DNA of 64,000 nt from Shigella phage vB_SdyM_006. Below are positions 1 through 64,000 of the stretch, one piece after another. The notes under the pieces were generated by a model, which saw nothing but the letters and a program-made list of their open reading frames with translations, was not told the DNA's origin and did not search any database. Every line of letters starts with the position of its first letter. The stretch's first letter is position 1. The stretch is taken from sequence record MK295204; one strand, written 5' to 3'. Both the position numbers and the translations under genes were made by a program.

Positions 1-2046
1 TTATAGATCCTTTGGTTTTAAGTTATCATTTATAATTTTAACTTGTTCTGATGTTAATTCCGGTAAGTTAAAAATATAATAATACAATACAGGGTATTTA
101 TCGCGAATATTGTATTCGTTAGATTCAAAAATAGTTTCTGCTTGTAATTCTATTTTTTGTAATTCATCATATAATTCTGGGTCAGAATACATCGTAACAC
201 GTTTTAATTCATGATACTGACTTGGATTAATTTTGGGTTTATAATCTTTAATATTAGCAAGGTCTTTAATCCATGGTAATTTTTTAATTACATCACCATT
301 TAAAAATTTAGTTGAGTAATTAACAGGGATAGAATACGCTGTTAATTTTGCTTTTTTAATCTTTTCAGATACCAAATCTATAGCATTTGTTTCTTCGCAA
401 TAACGATATGCGGCTGGACGTATTACATGGATTTCTTTTATATCTAGATATTCACAAATTTTAACAGCCAAACGTTCTGCAATATATTTTCTATTATCAG
501 GTGAACATATAATGCTATTATCAAATGAATACAACACCGGCCCTTTTATTTCTCTGACTTCAGAAGCTGTCATAAATTTATCACGTTTAGAAAAATATTT
601 GTTCCATTTATCTTCTACTAATGACCATACTTGAACATTAGAAGCTTTAGGACGAGCTTCAGCAGGTTTTACTGATTTATACTTCTGTCTTAGTTCTGAT
701 AATTTATATAGTGTGACATCTTTACCCATAAATTCATTAATTGAATCTATAGCATATGTATCAGTATCTTTTACTACAACACATAATGAGTCAACACGAA
801 AATCAGTTGTCATGCCTCTAATAGTAGAAATTTTATTTTTACCTTTAGCGTCATCAATGATAACTACTAAATTGTCTACAGAAAAATTAAGGACTGAACT
901 TATATTCTTCTTATATTTTGTTGCTGTCTTGTATTGACCAATTCGTACTAATTTAGGAGCATTGCAAATATAATAACCTTGGAGTTCTAAGTTTGGAAAA
1001 TCATTATACTTTTTAACTAAGCCTGCAATTCGACCAAACTTTTCAGAAGAAAACCTTTGAGTAATATATGTGCTTAATGTGTATGGCTTATTATTAACGT
1101 ATCTAAGTAAAGCACGTTCGTCGTCAAAAGAATCAATATCCTTTTTAATTTCAGCAAATAGTTTATCTGTAACTTCTTTTATACGAGTTTTAATATTATT
1201 AGTTGTTTCTTCATCATAAGAAATTTCTTCACGAGAAGGAGCAATATCAAGTTCGCCTAATTTAAAACGTACAAATAACTTTTTATCATAATCTCTTAAG
1301 ACACGTATTCCAGAAAAATCGAAATGTTCACTTTTTAATGGATATCTAATTTTGCCCATAATAGCATAGACTTCAGTTTTATCATAGGCAATACCAGATT
1401 CACTAAAGAATGCTTCTTTATTAGGTAAATATTTAACATCTAATTGTTGACCAATAAAATTAGGCTTGATATCACAGAAAGTAGCAAATACGTAATGTGC
1501 TTCACCATACCATTTAGAAACATCTTTTTCTAAAACAGGAACAGTGACTTCTAATCCAGAAGGACTATCATCTTCAACATCAAATGTTGGAATTAATGAA
1601 GGTTCACCATTGTCTAAGCATGCTGTATATCCACGAGCTCGACCTTCAAAACGAGAAACAATAGAAAATGTTTCTGTATATCCAAATGGAGATTTAGAGC
1701 CAAGACCTAATGCTCCAATAAAATCGTTTGAATCAGATTTTGTTGATTCAAAATATGTTGTGTACATATGTGTAACATCTTCATCTGATAATCCAGGACC
1801 ATAGTCTCGAATAATAAAACGTGGGTCAATAGCAGAAGGAAGTGTAATGTCAAATGATTTAGTGTGCCCAGCTAAAAGATGAGCATCTGCAGCGTTACAA
1901 CTCAATTCACGAATAATTGCTCTAATCTGATTTGAATATAAGTTTTGTGATAAAACTTTAAATGCTTTAGCAGACGTGGCAATTGTAAATTTAGTGGAGC
2001 CTTTTTGGCTCCCTAACATGGTTTCATTAGTATTATGTAACTTCAT
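1..2046 (-). CDS. rIIA: rIIA protein (membrane-associated, GHKL-ATPase-like N-terminus)
   Basis: 681 aa; N-terminus MKLHNTNETMLGSQKGSTKFTIATSAKAFKVLSQNLYSNQIRAIIREL and DFIGALGLGSKSPF match remembered T4 rIIA; first gene of T4-type map; ATG at 2044-2046. Confidence 0.85.
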   Translation of the reverse strand: MKLHNTNETMLGSQKGSTKFTIATSAKAFKVLSQNLYSNQIRAIIRELSCNAADAHLLAGHTKSFDITLPSAIDPRFIIRDYGPGLSDEDVTHMYTTYFESTKSDSNDFIGALGLGSKSPFGYTETFSIVSRFEGRARGYTACLDNGEPSLIPTFDVEDDSPSGLEVTVPVLEKDVSKWYGEAHYVFATFCDIKPNFIGQQLDVKYLPNKEAFFSESGIAYDKTEVYAIMGKIRYPLKSEHFDFSGIRVLRDYDKKLFVRFKLGELDIAPSREEISYDEETTNNIKTRIKEVTDKLFAEIKKDIDSFDDERALLRYVNNKPYTLSTYITQRFSSEKFGRIAGLVKKYNDFPNLELQGYYICNAPKLVRIGQYKTATKYKKNISSVLNFSVDNLVVIIDDAKGKNKISTIRGMTTDFRVDSLCVVVKDTDTYAIDSINEFMGKDVTLYKLSELRQKYKSVKPAEARPKASNVQVWSLVEDKWNKYFSKRDKFMTASEVREIKGPVLYSFDNSIICSPDNRKYIAERLAVKICEYLDIKEIHVIRPAAYRYCEETNAIDLVSEKIKKAKLTAYSIPVNYSTKFLNGDVIKKLPWIKDLANIKDYKPKINPSQYHELKRVTMYSDPELYDELQKIELQAETIFESNEYNIRDKYPVLYYYIFNLPELTSEQVKIINDNLKPKDL

Positions 2047-61177: not shown

Positions 61178-61774
61178 TTATTTGTTAAAAGTATCAACAT
61201 ATAATTCGAGTTCAGACATATTAACCGAAACATTAGAGCTTTCTGTAAATGTGTCAACTTCTGTAATAATAGTATCAACATCTACTAATACATGGTCTGT
61301 AGAAGCCATTACATCTTCAGGTAATTTGATACCTAATGCATCAGTTTCTTTGTTCAATTTAATAACTTCTAAATTAGCTTTAATTTCTTCTAATTTATCA
61401 GCAAGTTCAACAACTTTTTCTGCGATCGTAATAATAGATTTTTTACGATTTTCAACTTCGGTTTCTAAAGCTTCACCCAATTTTTTATATTGCAAAGCAG
61501 CGATAAAATATGCTTTTGGCACGGCTTGTTCTTTGCTTTTTAAGAGACGAATATGGTCTTCTTTTAGTTTACTGTTTTTAAAGTGGTCTTGAGCCTTGGC
61601 TTTTAAGTGCTCAATGCTTTGAGTTGCAGTAATTTCAGCATGACGTAAACTGTCAATTTTATTGATGATTAACGTCGCAGCTTGGGTATAACGTTCTTCA
61701 GCAGATAAATTGCTTTTGAAGAAAGAAGTTAATTTAGTAGATACGAAGTTTTTAGCAGTTTTTAATAAGCTCAT
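61178..61774 (-). CDS. hypothetical coiled-coil protein
   Basis: 198 aa; heptad-rich, Lys/Glu-rich. Confidence 0.35.
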   Translation of the reverse strand: MSLLKTAKNFVSTKLTSFFKSNLSAEERYTQAATLIINKIDSLRHAEITATQSIEHLKAKAQDHFKNSKLKEDHIRLLKSKEQAVPKAYFIAALQYKKLGEALETEVENRKKSIITIAEKVVELADKLEEIKANLEVIKLNKETDALGIKLPEDVMASTDHVLVDVDTIITEVDTFTESSNVSVNMSELELYVDTFNK

Positions 61775-62031: not shown

Positions 62032-62487
62032 TTAATTTTTTGAAATTAATTTTCGACATTGGTTTATGTATGCTTTGCGCTGGTTGTCCTCTAATTTTTC
62101 TAGATACGCAGCTTTTTGATCTTTAAAATTAACTAATCTTTCACTTATCTTATTAAATGTATCAGATTTAAGATAAAATACAGATCTTTTAGATTTAAAT
62201 TCAAAATAAGCTATAACAGTTCTTGACACATTTTCTCCTGGCTTCACTTGTGTCCTAGTACTTAATGGAAAATTCAAGTACATTGCAGCTGTGTATTCAG
62301 CCAAGAAGAAAGTCACTTTATCGACGTTATATAAGAGCCAGGACAATATATCATCTTCATTGATATATCTAAATTCAGATTCAATTAAAAGCCTATACCG
62401 AAGATCTGAGACTTGACATTTGCCAGCTTCATAAGAAGGCTCAAAACTTTCTGTGATGACAGAAAGTTCATCTAAATTATAATTCAT
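62032..62487 (-). CDS. hypothetical protein, tandem paralog family (copy 1)
   Basis: 151 aa; shares YxxxxxxVxFxxAEYTAAMYLNFPL and C-terminal AYIxxCRK with next two ORFs. Confidence 0.4.
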   Translation of the reverse strand: MNYNLDELSVITESFEPSYEAGKCQVSDLRYRLLIESEFRYINEDDILSWLLYNVDKVTFFLAEYTAAMYLNFPLSTRTQVKPGENVSRTVIAYFEFKSKRSVFYLKSDTFNKISERLVNFKDQKAAYLEKLEDNQRKAYINQCRKLISKN

Positions 62488-62914
62488 TTAGAGATTCCTT
62501 TATTTTATTTCTACATGATTCAATATAAGCTAAACGTTCAGAAGTTTTGATGGCTTCAATAAATTTGGTTCTTTTATTTTTAAAATCGTCAAACTCAGAA
62601 TATACACTATTGAAAAAATCAGCATCTAAATATACTACGTATTTTTTGTCGTCAAGCATAAATTCAGCTATAACCATACTAGTATATTTTGGGGCTTTTG
62701 AGCCAAGATATATTTTATTTAAACCTTTTAATGGAAAATTCCCGTATGTAGCATACTCGTAGTCAGCGCAATAAAATCTAACAGAACTTACATTATGGTA
62801 CATCCAATTGACAAAGTACTTAGTATACTGTTTATTTTTTCTACGTAAATCAGCAACTAAATATCCTGCTTCTTCTTCATCAAATAATGCAATAAAGTCA
62901 AAATTATTTTTCAT
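62477..62914 (-). CDS. hypothetical protein, tandem paralog family (copy 2)
   Basis: Track start TTG at 62950; first ATG 62914; YCADYEYATYGNFPL, AYIESCRNKIK. Confidence 0.4.
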   Translation of the reverse strand: MKNNFDFIALFDEEEAGYLVADLRRKNKQYTKYFVNWMYHNVSSVRFYCADYEYATYGNFPLKGLNKIYLGSKAPKYTSMVIAEFMLDDKKYVVYLDADFFNSVYSEFDDFKNKRTKFIEAIKTSERLAYIESCRNKIKESLNEL

Positions 62915-63374
62915 GGGTATGACCTTTAATTTTACGACGACATTTTTCAATATAGAAGTCTAATTCATTGGTATACTTAGAATTTACATAAATTTGTTTA
63001 TTTTTACTAAAACCTGAAATACCTTTTAAAACACCTTTGGCTTGATTATAGTCTATAAAGAACACATGTTCTTTATTATCGTACATAAATCTTAAAGCAA
63101 AAGTATCTTTATAGATATTAGATTCTTTTGTAACGATAGAATTAGTAGATTTATCAAGTGGCAAATTACATGCAAGAGCACAAGTATACTCACACTCATA
63201 TAATGTCACATAATTTGTATTAGTATACAAAAAATCTAGAATCTCATCAGAGGTCCAAGCTTTCTCAATATCATTTCCTAGAACACGTAGTTTCCAAAAA
63301 GTGGATTGACGTATATCAGCCCAGATAACATTATTATCTTTGCCTGCTTCAGGTCCTTTAAAAATATCAATCAT
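62904..63374 (-). CDS. hypothetical protein, tandem paralog family (copy 3)
   Basis: 156 aa; ECEYTCALACNLPL, FYIEKCRRKIK. Confidence 0.4.
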   Translation of the reverse strand: MIDIFKGPEAGKDNNVIWADIRQSTFWKLRVLGNDIEKAWTSDEILDFLYTNTNYVTLYECEYTCALACNLPLDKSTNSIVTKESNIYKDTFALRFMYDNKEHVFFIDYNQAKGVLKGISGFSKNKQIYVNSKYTNELDFYIEKCRRKIKGHTHEK

Positions 63375-63664
63375 TATATCCTCTCACAAAAAGCCCAATT
63401 AGCATGATAAACTGAAGCGCCTTTAGTATCATTCATGCACACTAAGTCTACAGGAGACACCACTCTATATAAAACAGGTTCTCCACCTAATGAACGCGCA
63501 GCTCTTCCGGCATAAATTTTAGCCAAACCTAAATCTTCAGTAAAGAAAACTCGGTCTAAATTTTTCTTACGTCCTTTTTCAGAAATAGTCTCAGTTGTTT
63601 CTGGTGGAAGTAACATATGTTCAATACCACATACAGAAGAAGAACCATGATAAAAAGTTTTCAT
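63374..63664 (-). CDS. small protein with Arr-like (rifampin ADP-ribosyltransferase-type) motif pattern
   Basis: 96 aa; FYHGSSS near N-terminus, then RVFFTEDL and GGEPVLYRV resemble Arr H-G-T / Y-F-S / Y-I-Y-x-V-E pattern; weak, by eye. Confidence 0.3.
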   Translation of the reverse strand: MKTFYHGSSSVCGIEHMLLPPETTETISEKGRKKNLDRVFFTEDLGLAKIYAGRAARSLGGEPVLYRVVSPVDLVCMNDTKGASVYHANWAFCERI

Positions 63665-63720
63665 TATAGACTCCGTTTTTAAATTATGTAGCTATTATAC
63701 ACACAATTTTTAATTTGTAC

Positions 63721-63746
63721 ATACTATAAACGAAAAAAGGAACCAA
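63721..63746 (-). terminator. intrinsic terminator hairpin (bidirectional-looking)
   Basis: cgaaaaaaggaaccaaaaggttcctt; U-run on minus strand; follows stop of partial gene at 63752. Confidence 0.55.
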
Positions 63747-63751
63747 AAGGT

Positions 63752-64000
63752 TCCTTTAATTTTAGATACATCCACCACAAGAACTATGTCGCCAATCTTC
63801 TTCGTTAATATGTGGATAAAGAGCATATAAGATTTTTTCGATATCTTTAAATCCATGTCTTTTTAAAGACGAAACTAATGAGTTAGTATCGTGTTTCAAC
63901 ATTAATTGGACCCAACTTTCTGGACTTAACCCTGCTGTATAAGAATCCCATTCTTCAGACCAATTATCGTCAAAACGCCAGGTGTCATAAGATTTACGTG
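63752..64000 (-). CDS. hypothetical protein, C-terminal fragment (N-terminus beyond window end)
   Basis: Hand-translated open frame ending ...HINEEDWRHSSCGGCI-stop at 63752; no start inside window. Confidence 0.35.

What the first reader, a model, noticed from the sequence alone, without database searches (positions are those of the whole stretch)
63374..63664. 96-aa protein with Arr-like ADP-ribosyltransferase motif pattern
FYHGSSS...RVFFTEDL...GGEPVLYRV resembles the H-G-[ST] / aromatic-x-[ST] / Y-x-V-E arrangement of rifampin ADP-ribosyltransferase (Arr) and related minimal ART folds. A phage-encoded mini-ART could modify host RNA polymerase or nucleic acids. The match is by eye and the protein is shorter than Arr.
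Basis: inference. Interest (0 to 1): 0.45.

Follow-up and report, generated by a model that had tools for sequence, protein, structure and literature searches.

The report
Mini Arr-like ADP-ribosyltransferase of T4-like phages
The 96-residue phage protein is a very small enzyme-like protein of the ADP-ribosyltransferase fold, most similar to the rifampicin-modifying enzyme Arr; the family was already catalogued by computer analysis, has never been tested in the laboratory, and almost certainly does not act on rifampicin.

Summary
The window comes from a T4-like Proteus phage (Bragavirus, 94% nt identity to phiP4-3).

Evidence that it is an Arr-related ART:
- The protein has no Pfam hit of its own.
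- A confident AlphaFold model (pLDDT 90) finds Arr (2HW2) as its best solved-structure match. The next ~30 matches are all ADP-ribosyltransferases.
- Its relatives at E ~1e-25 include domains inside giant phage "polyvalent" proteins. Many of these score on Pfam Arr-ms, three above the curated cut-off.
- A profile of the wider family aligns to Arr at 95.9% probability (H6 = Arr H19, F40 = Y49, Y51 = W59, and the invariant SEKGRKKN loop = Arr's D-loop).

It is 75% identical to ZZ1p0068, evidently the namesake of the "p0068-like" ART family described by Iyer/Aravind in 2022.

It is not a true Arr. It ends about 45 residues early, lacks the rifampicin-binding helix, and has no alignable equivalent of the catalytic Asp84.

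The most likely role is an early-expressed NAD+-dependent modifier of a host macromolecule. This is inferred, not shown.

Interest is modest.

The parts
63374..63664 (-). CDS of the 96-aa mini ART (p0068-like family, Arr-related)
   Evidence: ORF list; PHROG 2110 E 2e-54; 609 phage records by tblastn; AF2 pLDDT 90.4; Foldseek top hits Arr, then other ARTs
63641..63652 (-). Residues 5-8, Y-H-G-S: strand-1 NAD+ motif. H6 aligns with Arr His19 and G7 with Arr Gly20 (nicotinamide pocket)
   Evidence: H6 in 208/209 domain copies and G7 invariant in A1 and A2; alignment to Arr; role of Arr Gly20 from bioRxiv 10.1101/2025.02.20.639278
63551..63604 (-). Residues 21-38, PETTETISEKGRKKNLDR: the equivalent of Arr loop Val32-His46 (the 'D-loop' lining the NAD+ donor site). 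Contains invariant E29 and near-invariant G31, R32, K34, N35
   Evidence: Conservation; aligned to Arr E40/G42/R43; D-loop assignment in Arr. pLDDT is lower here, 74-77
63539..63550 (-). Residues 39-42, V-F-F-T: strand-2 motif. F40 aligns with Arr Tyr49 and T42 with Arr Thr51
   Evidence: F40 208/209, T42 206/209; alignment
63512..63514 (-). Y51, invariant aromatic in the long helix, 11 residues after F40. Aligns with Arr Trp59 and is the likely second wall of the nicotinamide pocket
   Evidence: 209/209; alignment. The correspondence to the Y-x10-Y pair of diphtheria toxin and PARP rests on my own knowledge
63383..63385 (-). E94 on the last strand. Invariant in the T4-like subfamily only; candidate replacement catalytic acid
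   Evidence: 25/25 in A1. An acidic residue sits at position 75 or at 94 in 183/209 domains, and at both in only 9. The spatial role is not tested
63671..63674 (-). Shine-Dalgarno GGAG, 6 nt upstream of the ATG
   Evidence: Read directly from the sequence
63694..63721 (-). Promoter-like site TGTACA-16 nt-TATAAT (10/12 match), resembling T4 early promoters
   Evidence: Consensus scan. Comparable GTTTAC/GTGTAC-17..19-TAnnAT sites lie upstream of the orthologue in 6 of 8 genera examined. Function is not shown
63736..63757 (-). Terminator-like hairpin (9-bp stem, T-run) that closes the upstream unit, so the ART starts a new transcription unit
   Evidence: Scan: 2 sites found against 0.4 expected

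Best explanation
The gene encodes a minimal (about 90-residue) NAD+-binding ADP-ribosyltransferase domain of the 'p0068-like' family, and its closest characterised relative is the rifampicin ADP-ribosyltransferase Arr. Shown: it has the ART fold, and it keeps the NAD+-site elements shared with Arr. These are His6-Gly7 on strand 1, Phe40-x-Thr42 on strand 2, Tyr51 on the helix, and a highly conserved SEKGRKKN loop that corresponds to Arr's donor-site D-loop. Shown: the same domain occurs inside giant phage and conjugative-element 'polyvalent' proteins, next to ART-PolyVal, NUDIX, GNAT, Toprim, portal and tape-measure domains. Inferred: in T4-like phages it is made as a free protein from an early, sigma70-type promoter directly after infection, binds NAD+, and transfers a single ADP-ribose to a host macromolecule (protein or RNA/DNA) to help take over the host or blunt a defence, as T4 Alt/ModA/ModB do with an unrelated ART type. 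It does not act on rifampicin, because the part of Arr that forms the rifampicin cleft is missing. The catalytic acid is not identified. Arr's Glu82/Asp84 have no counterpart in the T4-like subfamily, and Glu94 on the last strand is the best candidate.
For: Fold: the AF2 model has pLDDT 90.4 and pTM 0.82. Foldseek against PDB ranks Arr 2hw2 and 9iaf first (prob 1.00, TMq 0.67/0.64), followed only by ARTs down to rank 35: cholera, pertussis and typhoid toxins, Tpt1/KptA, tankyrase, ParT. In BFVD the third hit is a 94-aa viral protein named 'Ms Rifampin ADP-ribosyl transferase', E 8.6e-9, TM 0.78. Sequence: the A1 profile finds 220 representatives. The matching regions of P0127, P0137 and P0154 score above Pfam Arr-ms gathering, and 26/50 and 31/55 relatives hit PF12120. 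The A2 profile against PDB puts Arr first, E 0.0024. hhalign of A2 against an Arr alignment gives 95.9%, E 5e-9, in a register that pairs H6/H19, F40/Y49, T42/T51, E29/E40, R32/R43, Y51/W59. Conservation: H6 208, E29 207, F40 208, T42 206 and Y51 209 of 209 domains. Family identity: 75% identical to ZZ1p0068, and the ART+Dmd context described for the p0068 family (PMC9503650) is exactly what HX01 and JS10 show. Effector context: fusions with ART-PolyVal, NUDIX, LPD23, ddrB-ParB, portal and minor-tail domains. Early expression: own promoter-like site, terminator upstream and SD, and early-promoter-like motifs upstream in other genera.
Against: No enzymatic activity has been shown for any member, and I found no experimental paper. 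The window protein alone has no Pfam, NCBIfam or PDB sequence hit. The T4-like subfamily alone aligns to Arr only weakly (hhalign 40.7%). Foldseek E-values against PDB are modest (0.018). No acidic residue is conserved across the whole family at the place of Arr Asp84, and the profile alignments stop just before it. The 'Tyr' of the H-Y-D triad is Phe here. The target and biological role are entirely inferred. The promoter call is a consensus match only.
Confidence: 0.6

Rival explanations
1. It is a non-catalytic or merely hydrolytic NAD+/ADP-ribose-binding protein: a sponge or decoy for NAD-derived immune signals, or a NADase. It would keep the NAD+ pocket of the ART fold but would not transfer ADP-ribose to a target.
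For: The residues conserved family-wide are those of the NAD+ pocket and D-loop. No acidic residue is conserved family-wide where Arr has Asp84. The protein is extremely small, with no obvious substrate-recognition element beyond the core.
Against: 88% of domains do carry an acidic residue at one of two alternative positions, 75 or 94. ARTs without the Glu (H-Y-I/L/Y PARPs, Tpt1) are still transferases (and my own knowledge). The domain sits among enzymatic effector domains in polyvalent proteins.
Confidence: 0.2
2. It is the toxin of a phage-borne type II toxin-antitoxin pair, as proposed for p0068-family ART plus Dmd. In this phage the downstream, translationally coupled 156-aa protein would act as the antitoxin.
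For: The ART stop overlaps the dmd start in HX01 and abuts it in JS10. The proposal is in PMC9503650. In the window the next gene starts on the last base of the ART stop codon.
Against: The downstream neighbour is unrelated from genus to genus: Dmd, TM peptides, a Cys-rich 56-mer, a 79-mer, or a gene on the opposite strand. In T4, dmd sits next to gene 41 without any ART, so dmd is in its ancestral place and the ART is the insertion. No Dmd homologue was found in this 64-kb window. The phrog_16787 paralogues occur only in Proteus phages. Overlapping start and stop codons are the norm in T4-type genomes (my own knowledge).
Confidence: 0.1
3. It is a true Arr orthologue that ADP-ribosylates rifamycins and confers antibiotic resistance on the infected cell.
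For: Arr is the closest solved structure and the closest Pfam family.
Against: The NCBIfam rifampin_ARR equivalog is not hit by the window protein, and relatives reach only ~25 bits against a cut-off of 130, covering positions 3-70 of 131. The protein ends about 45 residues before Arr does. The model has only one long helix, whereas Arr's rifampicin cleft needs alpha1 plus the C-terminal alpha2 (PMC8120803). There is no equivalent of Asp84. A lytic T4-like phage gains nothing obvious from rifampicin resistance.
Confidence: 0.02
4. It works like Tpt1/KptA, using NAD+ to remove or modify a phosphate on RNA. This would be RNA repair or RNA-end modification rather than protein modification.
For: Tpt1/KptA structures appear among the Foldseek hits at ranks 4, 20 and 21, and a phage 'RNA 2'-phosphotransferase' appears in BFVD. 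The invariant basic GRKKN loop could bind phosphate (inference). One relative is fused to a 2H phosphoesterase. PMC9503650 speculates on RNA substrates.
Against: No Pfam Tpt1 hit for it or its relatives. TM-scores to Tpt1 are low (0.33-0.46, against 0.67 for Arr). Tpt1's separate RNA-binding lobe is absent in a 96-aa protein (my own knowledge).
Confidence: 0.08

Closest known systems
p0068-like ART family (H-Y-[EDQ] clade; Aravind et al. 2015; Iyer, Burroughs, Anantharaman and Aravind 2022, PMC9503650)
   Same: The window protein is 75% identical to Acinetobacter phage ZZ1 protein ZZ1p0068. Close homologues in coliphages sit immediately upstream of dmd, exactly as that paper describes. Several GenBank and UniRef records already name it 'ADP-ribosyl transferase'.
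   Different: In this Proteus phage there is no Dmd next to it; three lineage-specific paralogues follow instead. That 'p0068' refers to ZZ1p0068 is inferred from the name and the context, because the family definition paper was not available.
Arr, rifampin ADP-ribosyltransferase (PDB 2HW2, Pfam PF12120, NCBIfam NF033144)
   Same: Same fold and best structural match. The N-terminal ~75 residues are homologous, including the His-Gly-[ST] strand, D-loop, aromatic-x-Thr strand, helix with the second aromatic residue, and the following strand. Both are unusually small ARTs.
   Different: 96 aa against 143 aa. Phe replaces Tyr49. There is no alignable Glu82/Asp84. Arr's C-terminal region with helix alpha2, which closes the rifampicin cleft, is missing. 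It fails the Pfam and NCBIfam thresholds. The basic, invariant GRKKN insertion in the D-loop is absent from Arr.
ART-PolyVal / N4-like ART (PF18760) of polyvalent proteins (Iyer et al. 2017, PMC5512222)
   Same: Both are phage-borne H-type ART domains found in the same giant polyvalent proteins, and are predicted to be delivered or early effectors.
   Different: They are separate domains. In P0139, P0132 and P0165 the ART-PolyVal region and the region matching this protein lie side by side without overlap. This protein and its family give no PF18760 hit.
T4 Alt / ModA / ModB
   Same: Phage ARTs of T4-type phages that act on host proteins at the start of infection. This is the functional analogy used for the proposed role (PMC5512222).
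   Different: They belong to a different ART clade (R-S-E active site, about 200-680 aa), and Alt is packaged in the head. This protein has His, not Arg, on strand 1 and is 96 aa.

Membership tests
ART superfamily (fold level) | Split beta-sheet ART fold | tested here: met
   AF2 pLDDT 90.4. Foldseek PDB ranks 1-35 are all ARTs, led by Arr. BFVD hits include proteins named Arr, Tpt1-like and DarT.
ART superfamily (fold level) | Strand-1 His (or Arg) followed by Gly-[ST], which binds NAD+ | tested here: met
   Y5-H6-G7-S8. H6 is present in 208/209 domains and aligns with Arr His19.
ART superfamily (fold level) | Strand-2 aromatic-x-[ST], plus a second aromatic residue about 10 residues later | tested here: met
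   F40 208/209, T42 206/209, Y51 209/209. They align to Arr Y49, T51 and W59. The aromatic residue is Phe, not Tyr.
ART superfamily (fold level) | Catalytic Glu/Asp/Gln on the later strand | tested here: inconclusive
   Profile alignments end just before Arr Asp84. The T4-like subfamily has V75-C76-M77 there. E94 is invariant in the subfamily only. Acidic residues at positions 75 and 94 are largely mutually exclusive. No coordinates were available to check the geometry.
ART superfamily (fold level) | NAD+-dependent ADP-ribose transfer | not testable with these tools
   Needs biochemistry.
Arr (rifampin ART; PF12120 / NF033144) | Score above the curated family thresholds | tested here: not met
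   The window protein gives 0 Pfam hits at E<=10 and 0 NCBIfam hits. Relatives reach 27-29 bits on PF12120 (cut-off 25) but only ~25 bits on the equivalog model (cut-off 130).
Arr (rifampin ART; PF12120 / NF033144) | H-Y-D triad (His19, Tyr49, Asp84) | tested here: not met
   His is present, Tyr is replaced by an invariant Phe, and there is no conserved Asp equivalent. The triad is taken from PMC8120803.
Arr (rifampin ART; PF12120 / NF033144) | Rifampicin cleft formed by helix alpha1 and the C-terminal helix alpha2 | tested here: not met
   The protein ends at residue 96. The model has one long helix (45-59) and strands to the C-terminus. Matches cover only positions 1-67 of 99 (Pfam) and 3-70 of 131 (NCBIfam).
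p0068-like ART family | Full-length homology to the prototype ZZ1p0068 | tested here: met
   P0035 = ZZ1p0068: E 6e-43, 75% identity, 100% coverage. Locus confirmed.
p0068-like ART family | Adjacent Dmd 'antitoxin' (described for a subset only) | tested here: not met
   No Dmd homologue in the window. The neighbour is a phrog_16787 protein. Dmd adjacency is seen in HX01 and JS10 only.
ART-PolyVal (PF18760) | Match to PF18760 | tested here: not met
   No hit for the window protein or for the 50 family domains. PF18760 occupies a different region of the same polyvalent proteins.
Tpt1/KptA RNA 2'-phosphotransferase | Match to the family model and a two-lobed architecture | tested here: not met
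   No Pfam hit. Foldseek TMq is 0.33-0.46, below Arr. A 96-aa protein has room for one lobe only.

The most novel reading that the evidence does not exclude
This would be the smallest self-sufficient ADP-ribosyltransferase known (about 90 residues). It would have shed Arr's catalytic Asp and substrate helix and moved its catalytic acid to the last strand (Glu94 in T4-like phages, Glu75 in polyvalent-protein copies). It would use its invariant basic GRKKN D-loop to act on an unconventional substrate, such as an RNA or DNA end or an NAD-derived immune signal, rather than a protein side chain. That would make it a broadly conserved early counter-defence enzyme of T4-like phages.
Probability: 0.15. 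Interest if true: 0.65.

Novelty: new member of a known kind. Interest (0 to 1): 0.3.

Why it matters
If it is active, this protein defines the lower size limit of the ART fold. It would add a fourth, unrelated ART type to the T4-like phage toolkit beside Alt, ModA and ModB. It is present in more than 600 sequenced phages of Escherichia, Klebsiella, Acinetobacter, Aeromonas, Proteus and others, many of them phage-therapy candidates. It is as well conserved (65-80% identity across genera) as core replication or structural proteins, even though it changes position in the genome. That degree of conservation suggests a conserved host target worth identifying. The link to Arr also bears on the old question of what Arr-type enzymes did before they met rifamycins. 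None of this is new as a prediction: the family is already in the literature and in some annotations. What is missing is biochemistry.

Tried and rejected
- Direct Pfam, NCBIfam, PADLOC and PDB sequence searches with the single protein gave nothing. The A1 profile (T4-like subfamily only) against PDB gave only a spurious periostin match. The link to Arr appeared only after I widened the family with the representative search.
- I looked for a conserved partner gene (antitoxin or reversing enzyme) downstream of the ART in 8 genera. The neighbours are unrelated to one another, so I rejected a general two-gene system.
- I tested whether the downstream 156-aa protein is Dmd-like. BLAST gave only one weak local match, to the second paralogue (E 0.003 over 31 aa), which I do not take as evidence.
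- I tried to read the family-defining review (Aravind et al. 2015) and the supplement of PMC9503650. Neither is held.
- The literature search for 'p0068' was swamped by p-values.
- dN/dS against phiP4-3 was uninformative, with only 2 nt differences.

Full report
**Observation**

On the coding strand the ATG is preceded by GGAG six bases upstream. Further upstream lie a sigma70-type promoter-like site (TGTACA-16-TATAAT, 63721-63694) and a terminator-like hairpin (63757-63736) that closes the preceding gene.

The window is a T4-like Proteus phage: 94% nucleotide identity over 2 kb to Proteus phage phiP4-3, genus Bragavirus, Straboviridae. tblastn finds the protein in 609 phage records, almost all at 60-80% identity. 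The hosts are Escherichia, Klebsiella, Acinetobacter, Aeromonas, Enterobacter, Vibrio and others. It is therefore a real gene under strong constraint.

**What the protein is**

The single sequence has no Pfam hit even at E<=10, no PDB sequence hit and no NCBIfam or PADLOC hit. It does match PHROG 2110, which has unknown function.

An AlphaFold2 model built on 25 homologues is confident: pLDDT 90.4, pTM 0.82, with six strands and one long helix. Foldseek against the PDB gave these results:
- Ranks 1 and 2 are the rifampicin ADP-ribosyltransferase Arr (2hw2, 9iaf; probability 1.00, TM 0.67 and 0.64).
- Every match down to rank 35 is an ADP-ribosyltransferase: cholera, pertussis and typhoid toxins, Tpt1/KptA, tankyrase and ParT.
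- The E-values are modest (0.018), so I looked for independent sequence evidence.

**Sequence evidence for the link to Arr**

- An HMM of the T4-like subfamily (alignment A1), searched against 1.8 billion representative proteins, found 220 relatives. Many are not small free-standing proteins but domains inside proteins of 250 to 3,900 residues.
- In several of these (P0127, P0137, P0154), the region that matches my profile at E ~1e-25 scores above the Pfam gathering threshold for Arr-ms (PF12120).
- 26 of 50 excised domains and 31 of 55 full-length multidomain relatives hit PF12120, with a best E of about 1e-10.
- A profile of the wider family (A2), searched against PDB sequences, puts Arr first at E 0.0024.
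- hhalign of A2 against an alignment of 18 Arr proteins gives 95.9% probability and E 5e-9 over 70 columns. The T4-like subfamily alone gives the same register but only 40.7%.
- In the viral structure library, the third-best match is a 94-residue protein named after Arr-ms (E 8.6e-9, TM 0.78).

The ART fold and a specific relationship to Arr are therefore well supported.

**Anatomy**

The alignments pair the residues as follows:

| Phage protein | Arr |
|---|---|
| His6 | His19 |
| Gly7 | Gly20 |
| Phe40 | Tyr49 |
| Thr42 | Thr51 |
| Tyr51 | Trp59 |
| Glu29 | Glu40 |
| Arg32 | Arg43 |

In 209 full-length copies of the domain, H6 is present in 208, E29 in 207, F40 in 208, T42 in 206 and Y51 in 209.

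The most conserved stretch, S-E-K-G-R-K-K-N-L-D (residues 28-37), lies in the segment equivalent to Arr loop Val32-His46. The recent Arr-inhibitor study equates that loop with the donor-site D-loop of other ARTs, and the same study places Gly20 and Tyr49 in the nicotinamide and adenosine pockets (bioRxiv 10.1101/2025.02.20.639278). So the residues under the strongest selection are those expected to hold NAD+.

It is not catalytic.

**Why it is not an Arr**

- Arr's triad is H19-Y49-D84, and its rifampicin cleft is built from helix alpha1 and a C-terminal helix alpha2 (PMC8120803).
- All profile alignments stop at Arr Glu82, just before Asp84. Matches cover only positions 1-67 of the 99-position Pfam model and 3-70 of the 131-position NCBIfam equivalog model. 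On the equivalog model, relatives score ~25 bits against a cut-off of 130.
- The phage protein ends about 45 residues earlier than Arr and has no second long helix.
- Where Arr has E82-D83-D84, the T4-like subfamily has V75-C76-M77.

**What is already known**

Iyer, Burroughs, Anantharaman and Aravind (2022, PMC9503650) list a 'p0068-like' family of the H-Y-[EDQ] clade among the most frequent viral ARTs. They describe it next to dmd in Escherichia, Shigella and Salmonella phages, propose a toxin-antitoxin pair, and speculate about RNA substrates.

One of my hits, 75% identical to the window protein, is ZZ1p0068 of Acinetobacter phage ZZ1. In HX01 and JS10 the homologue lies immediately upstream of dmd. 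I conclude that this is that family. The step from the name to the family is an inference, because the defining review was not available. Some GenBank and UniRef records already call the protein 'ADP-ribosyl transferase'. I found no experimental study.

**Context and likely role**

The large relatives carry ART-PolyVal, NUDIX, GNAT, Toprim, LPD23, ddrB-ParB, CHAP, PcfJ, a lambda-type portal, a minor-tail/tape-measure domain and a 2H phosphoesterase. This is the repertoire of the 'polyvalent proteins' that phages and conjugative elements are thought to deliver into the recipient cell (PMC5512222). ART-PolyVal and the present domain occupy separate, adjacent regions of the same proteins, so they are distinct ARTs.

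In T4-like phages the domain is free-standing. It sits in different neighbourhoods in different genera: between 41 and dmd, near srd/rnlB, near inh/hoc, and after the tRNA cluster. T4 itself has 41 directly next to dmd with no ART. Its downstream neighbour is unrelated from genus to genus, which argues against an obligatory two-gene system.

In six of eight genera the start codon is preceded by GTTTAC/GTGTAC/TGTACA, then 16-19 nt, then TAnnAT, often after a terminator hairpin. This resembles T4 early promoters (my own knowledge of that consensus).

The best-supported reading is an early-expressed, NAD+-dependent mono-ADP-ribosyltransferase that acts on a host macromolecule, analogous in role to Alt/ModA/ModB. 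The fold, the family and the NAD+ site are shown. Catalysis, timing and target are inferred. The rivals are a non-transferring NAD+/ADPr binder or NADase, a toxin with a neighbouring antitoxin, a true rifampicin ART, and a Tpt1-like RNA enzyme; they are scored in the rival-explanations section above.

**Verdict**

The protein is nevertheless a member of an already catalogued, biochemically untested phage ART family. It is not an Arr orthologue. Novelty: new member of a known kind. Interest: 0.3.

Noticed in passing
window 62032-63374 (minus strand): ORFs 62904-63374, 62477-62950 (probable ATG at 62914), 62032-62487: Three tandem paralogues (about 145-156 aa) of PHROG 16787, unknown function, lie directly downstream of the ART, and the first starts on the last base of the ART stop codon. 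tblastn finds them only in five Proteus T4-like phage records. The first is 83% identical to its phiP4-3 counterpart, against 99% for the ART, so it is a fast-evolving, lineage-specific gene array.
   Followed up: partly
window 63374-63664 compared with L002 4001-4291: The ART ORF differs from phiP4-3 at only 2 of 291 nucleotides, while the surrounding 2 kb is 94% identical. This points to unusually strong local conservation or a recent exchange of this gene.
   Followed up: partly
L001, L003-L009 (HX01, RB16, ZZ1, Aeromonas 31.2, Vibrio 501E54-1, JS10, Serratia 4S, T4): The ART gene occupies different genomic neighbourhoods in different Straboviridae genera and is absent from the 41-dmd junction of T4. 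It behaves as a mobile accessory gene, yet keeps 65-80% protein identity across genera.
   Followed up: partly
Relatives P0132, P0139, P0165, P0169, P0143, P0180 (representative-protein hits): The mini Arr-like domain recurs inside giant polyvalent proteins, often right next to a second, different ART (ART-PolyVal). It also occurs with NUDIX, with a portal plus a 2H phosphoesterase, or inside a tape-measure-like protein. Having two ART types in one polypeptide suggests different substrates.
   Followed up: partly
Alignment of 209 domain copies, positions 75 and 94 of the window protein: Acidic residues at positions 75 and 94 are almost mutually exclusive (60 and 132 copies, both in 9, neither in 26). 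This may mark a relocated catalytic residue, but it is confounded by the split between the two clades.
   Followed up: partly
window 61178-61774 (minus strand): A 198-aa protein matches PHROG 1203 (unknown function, E 3e-63) and has weak coiled-coil-type Pfam similarities only. It is another conserved phage protein of unknown role in the same early-gene block.
   Followed up: no
window 63762-63902 (minus strand): A 46-codon ORF ending in ...SSCGGCI stops just before the terminator-like hairpin upstream of the ART. I did not check whether it is a real gene.
   Followed up: no
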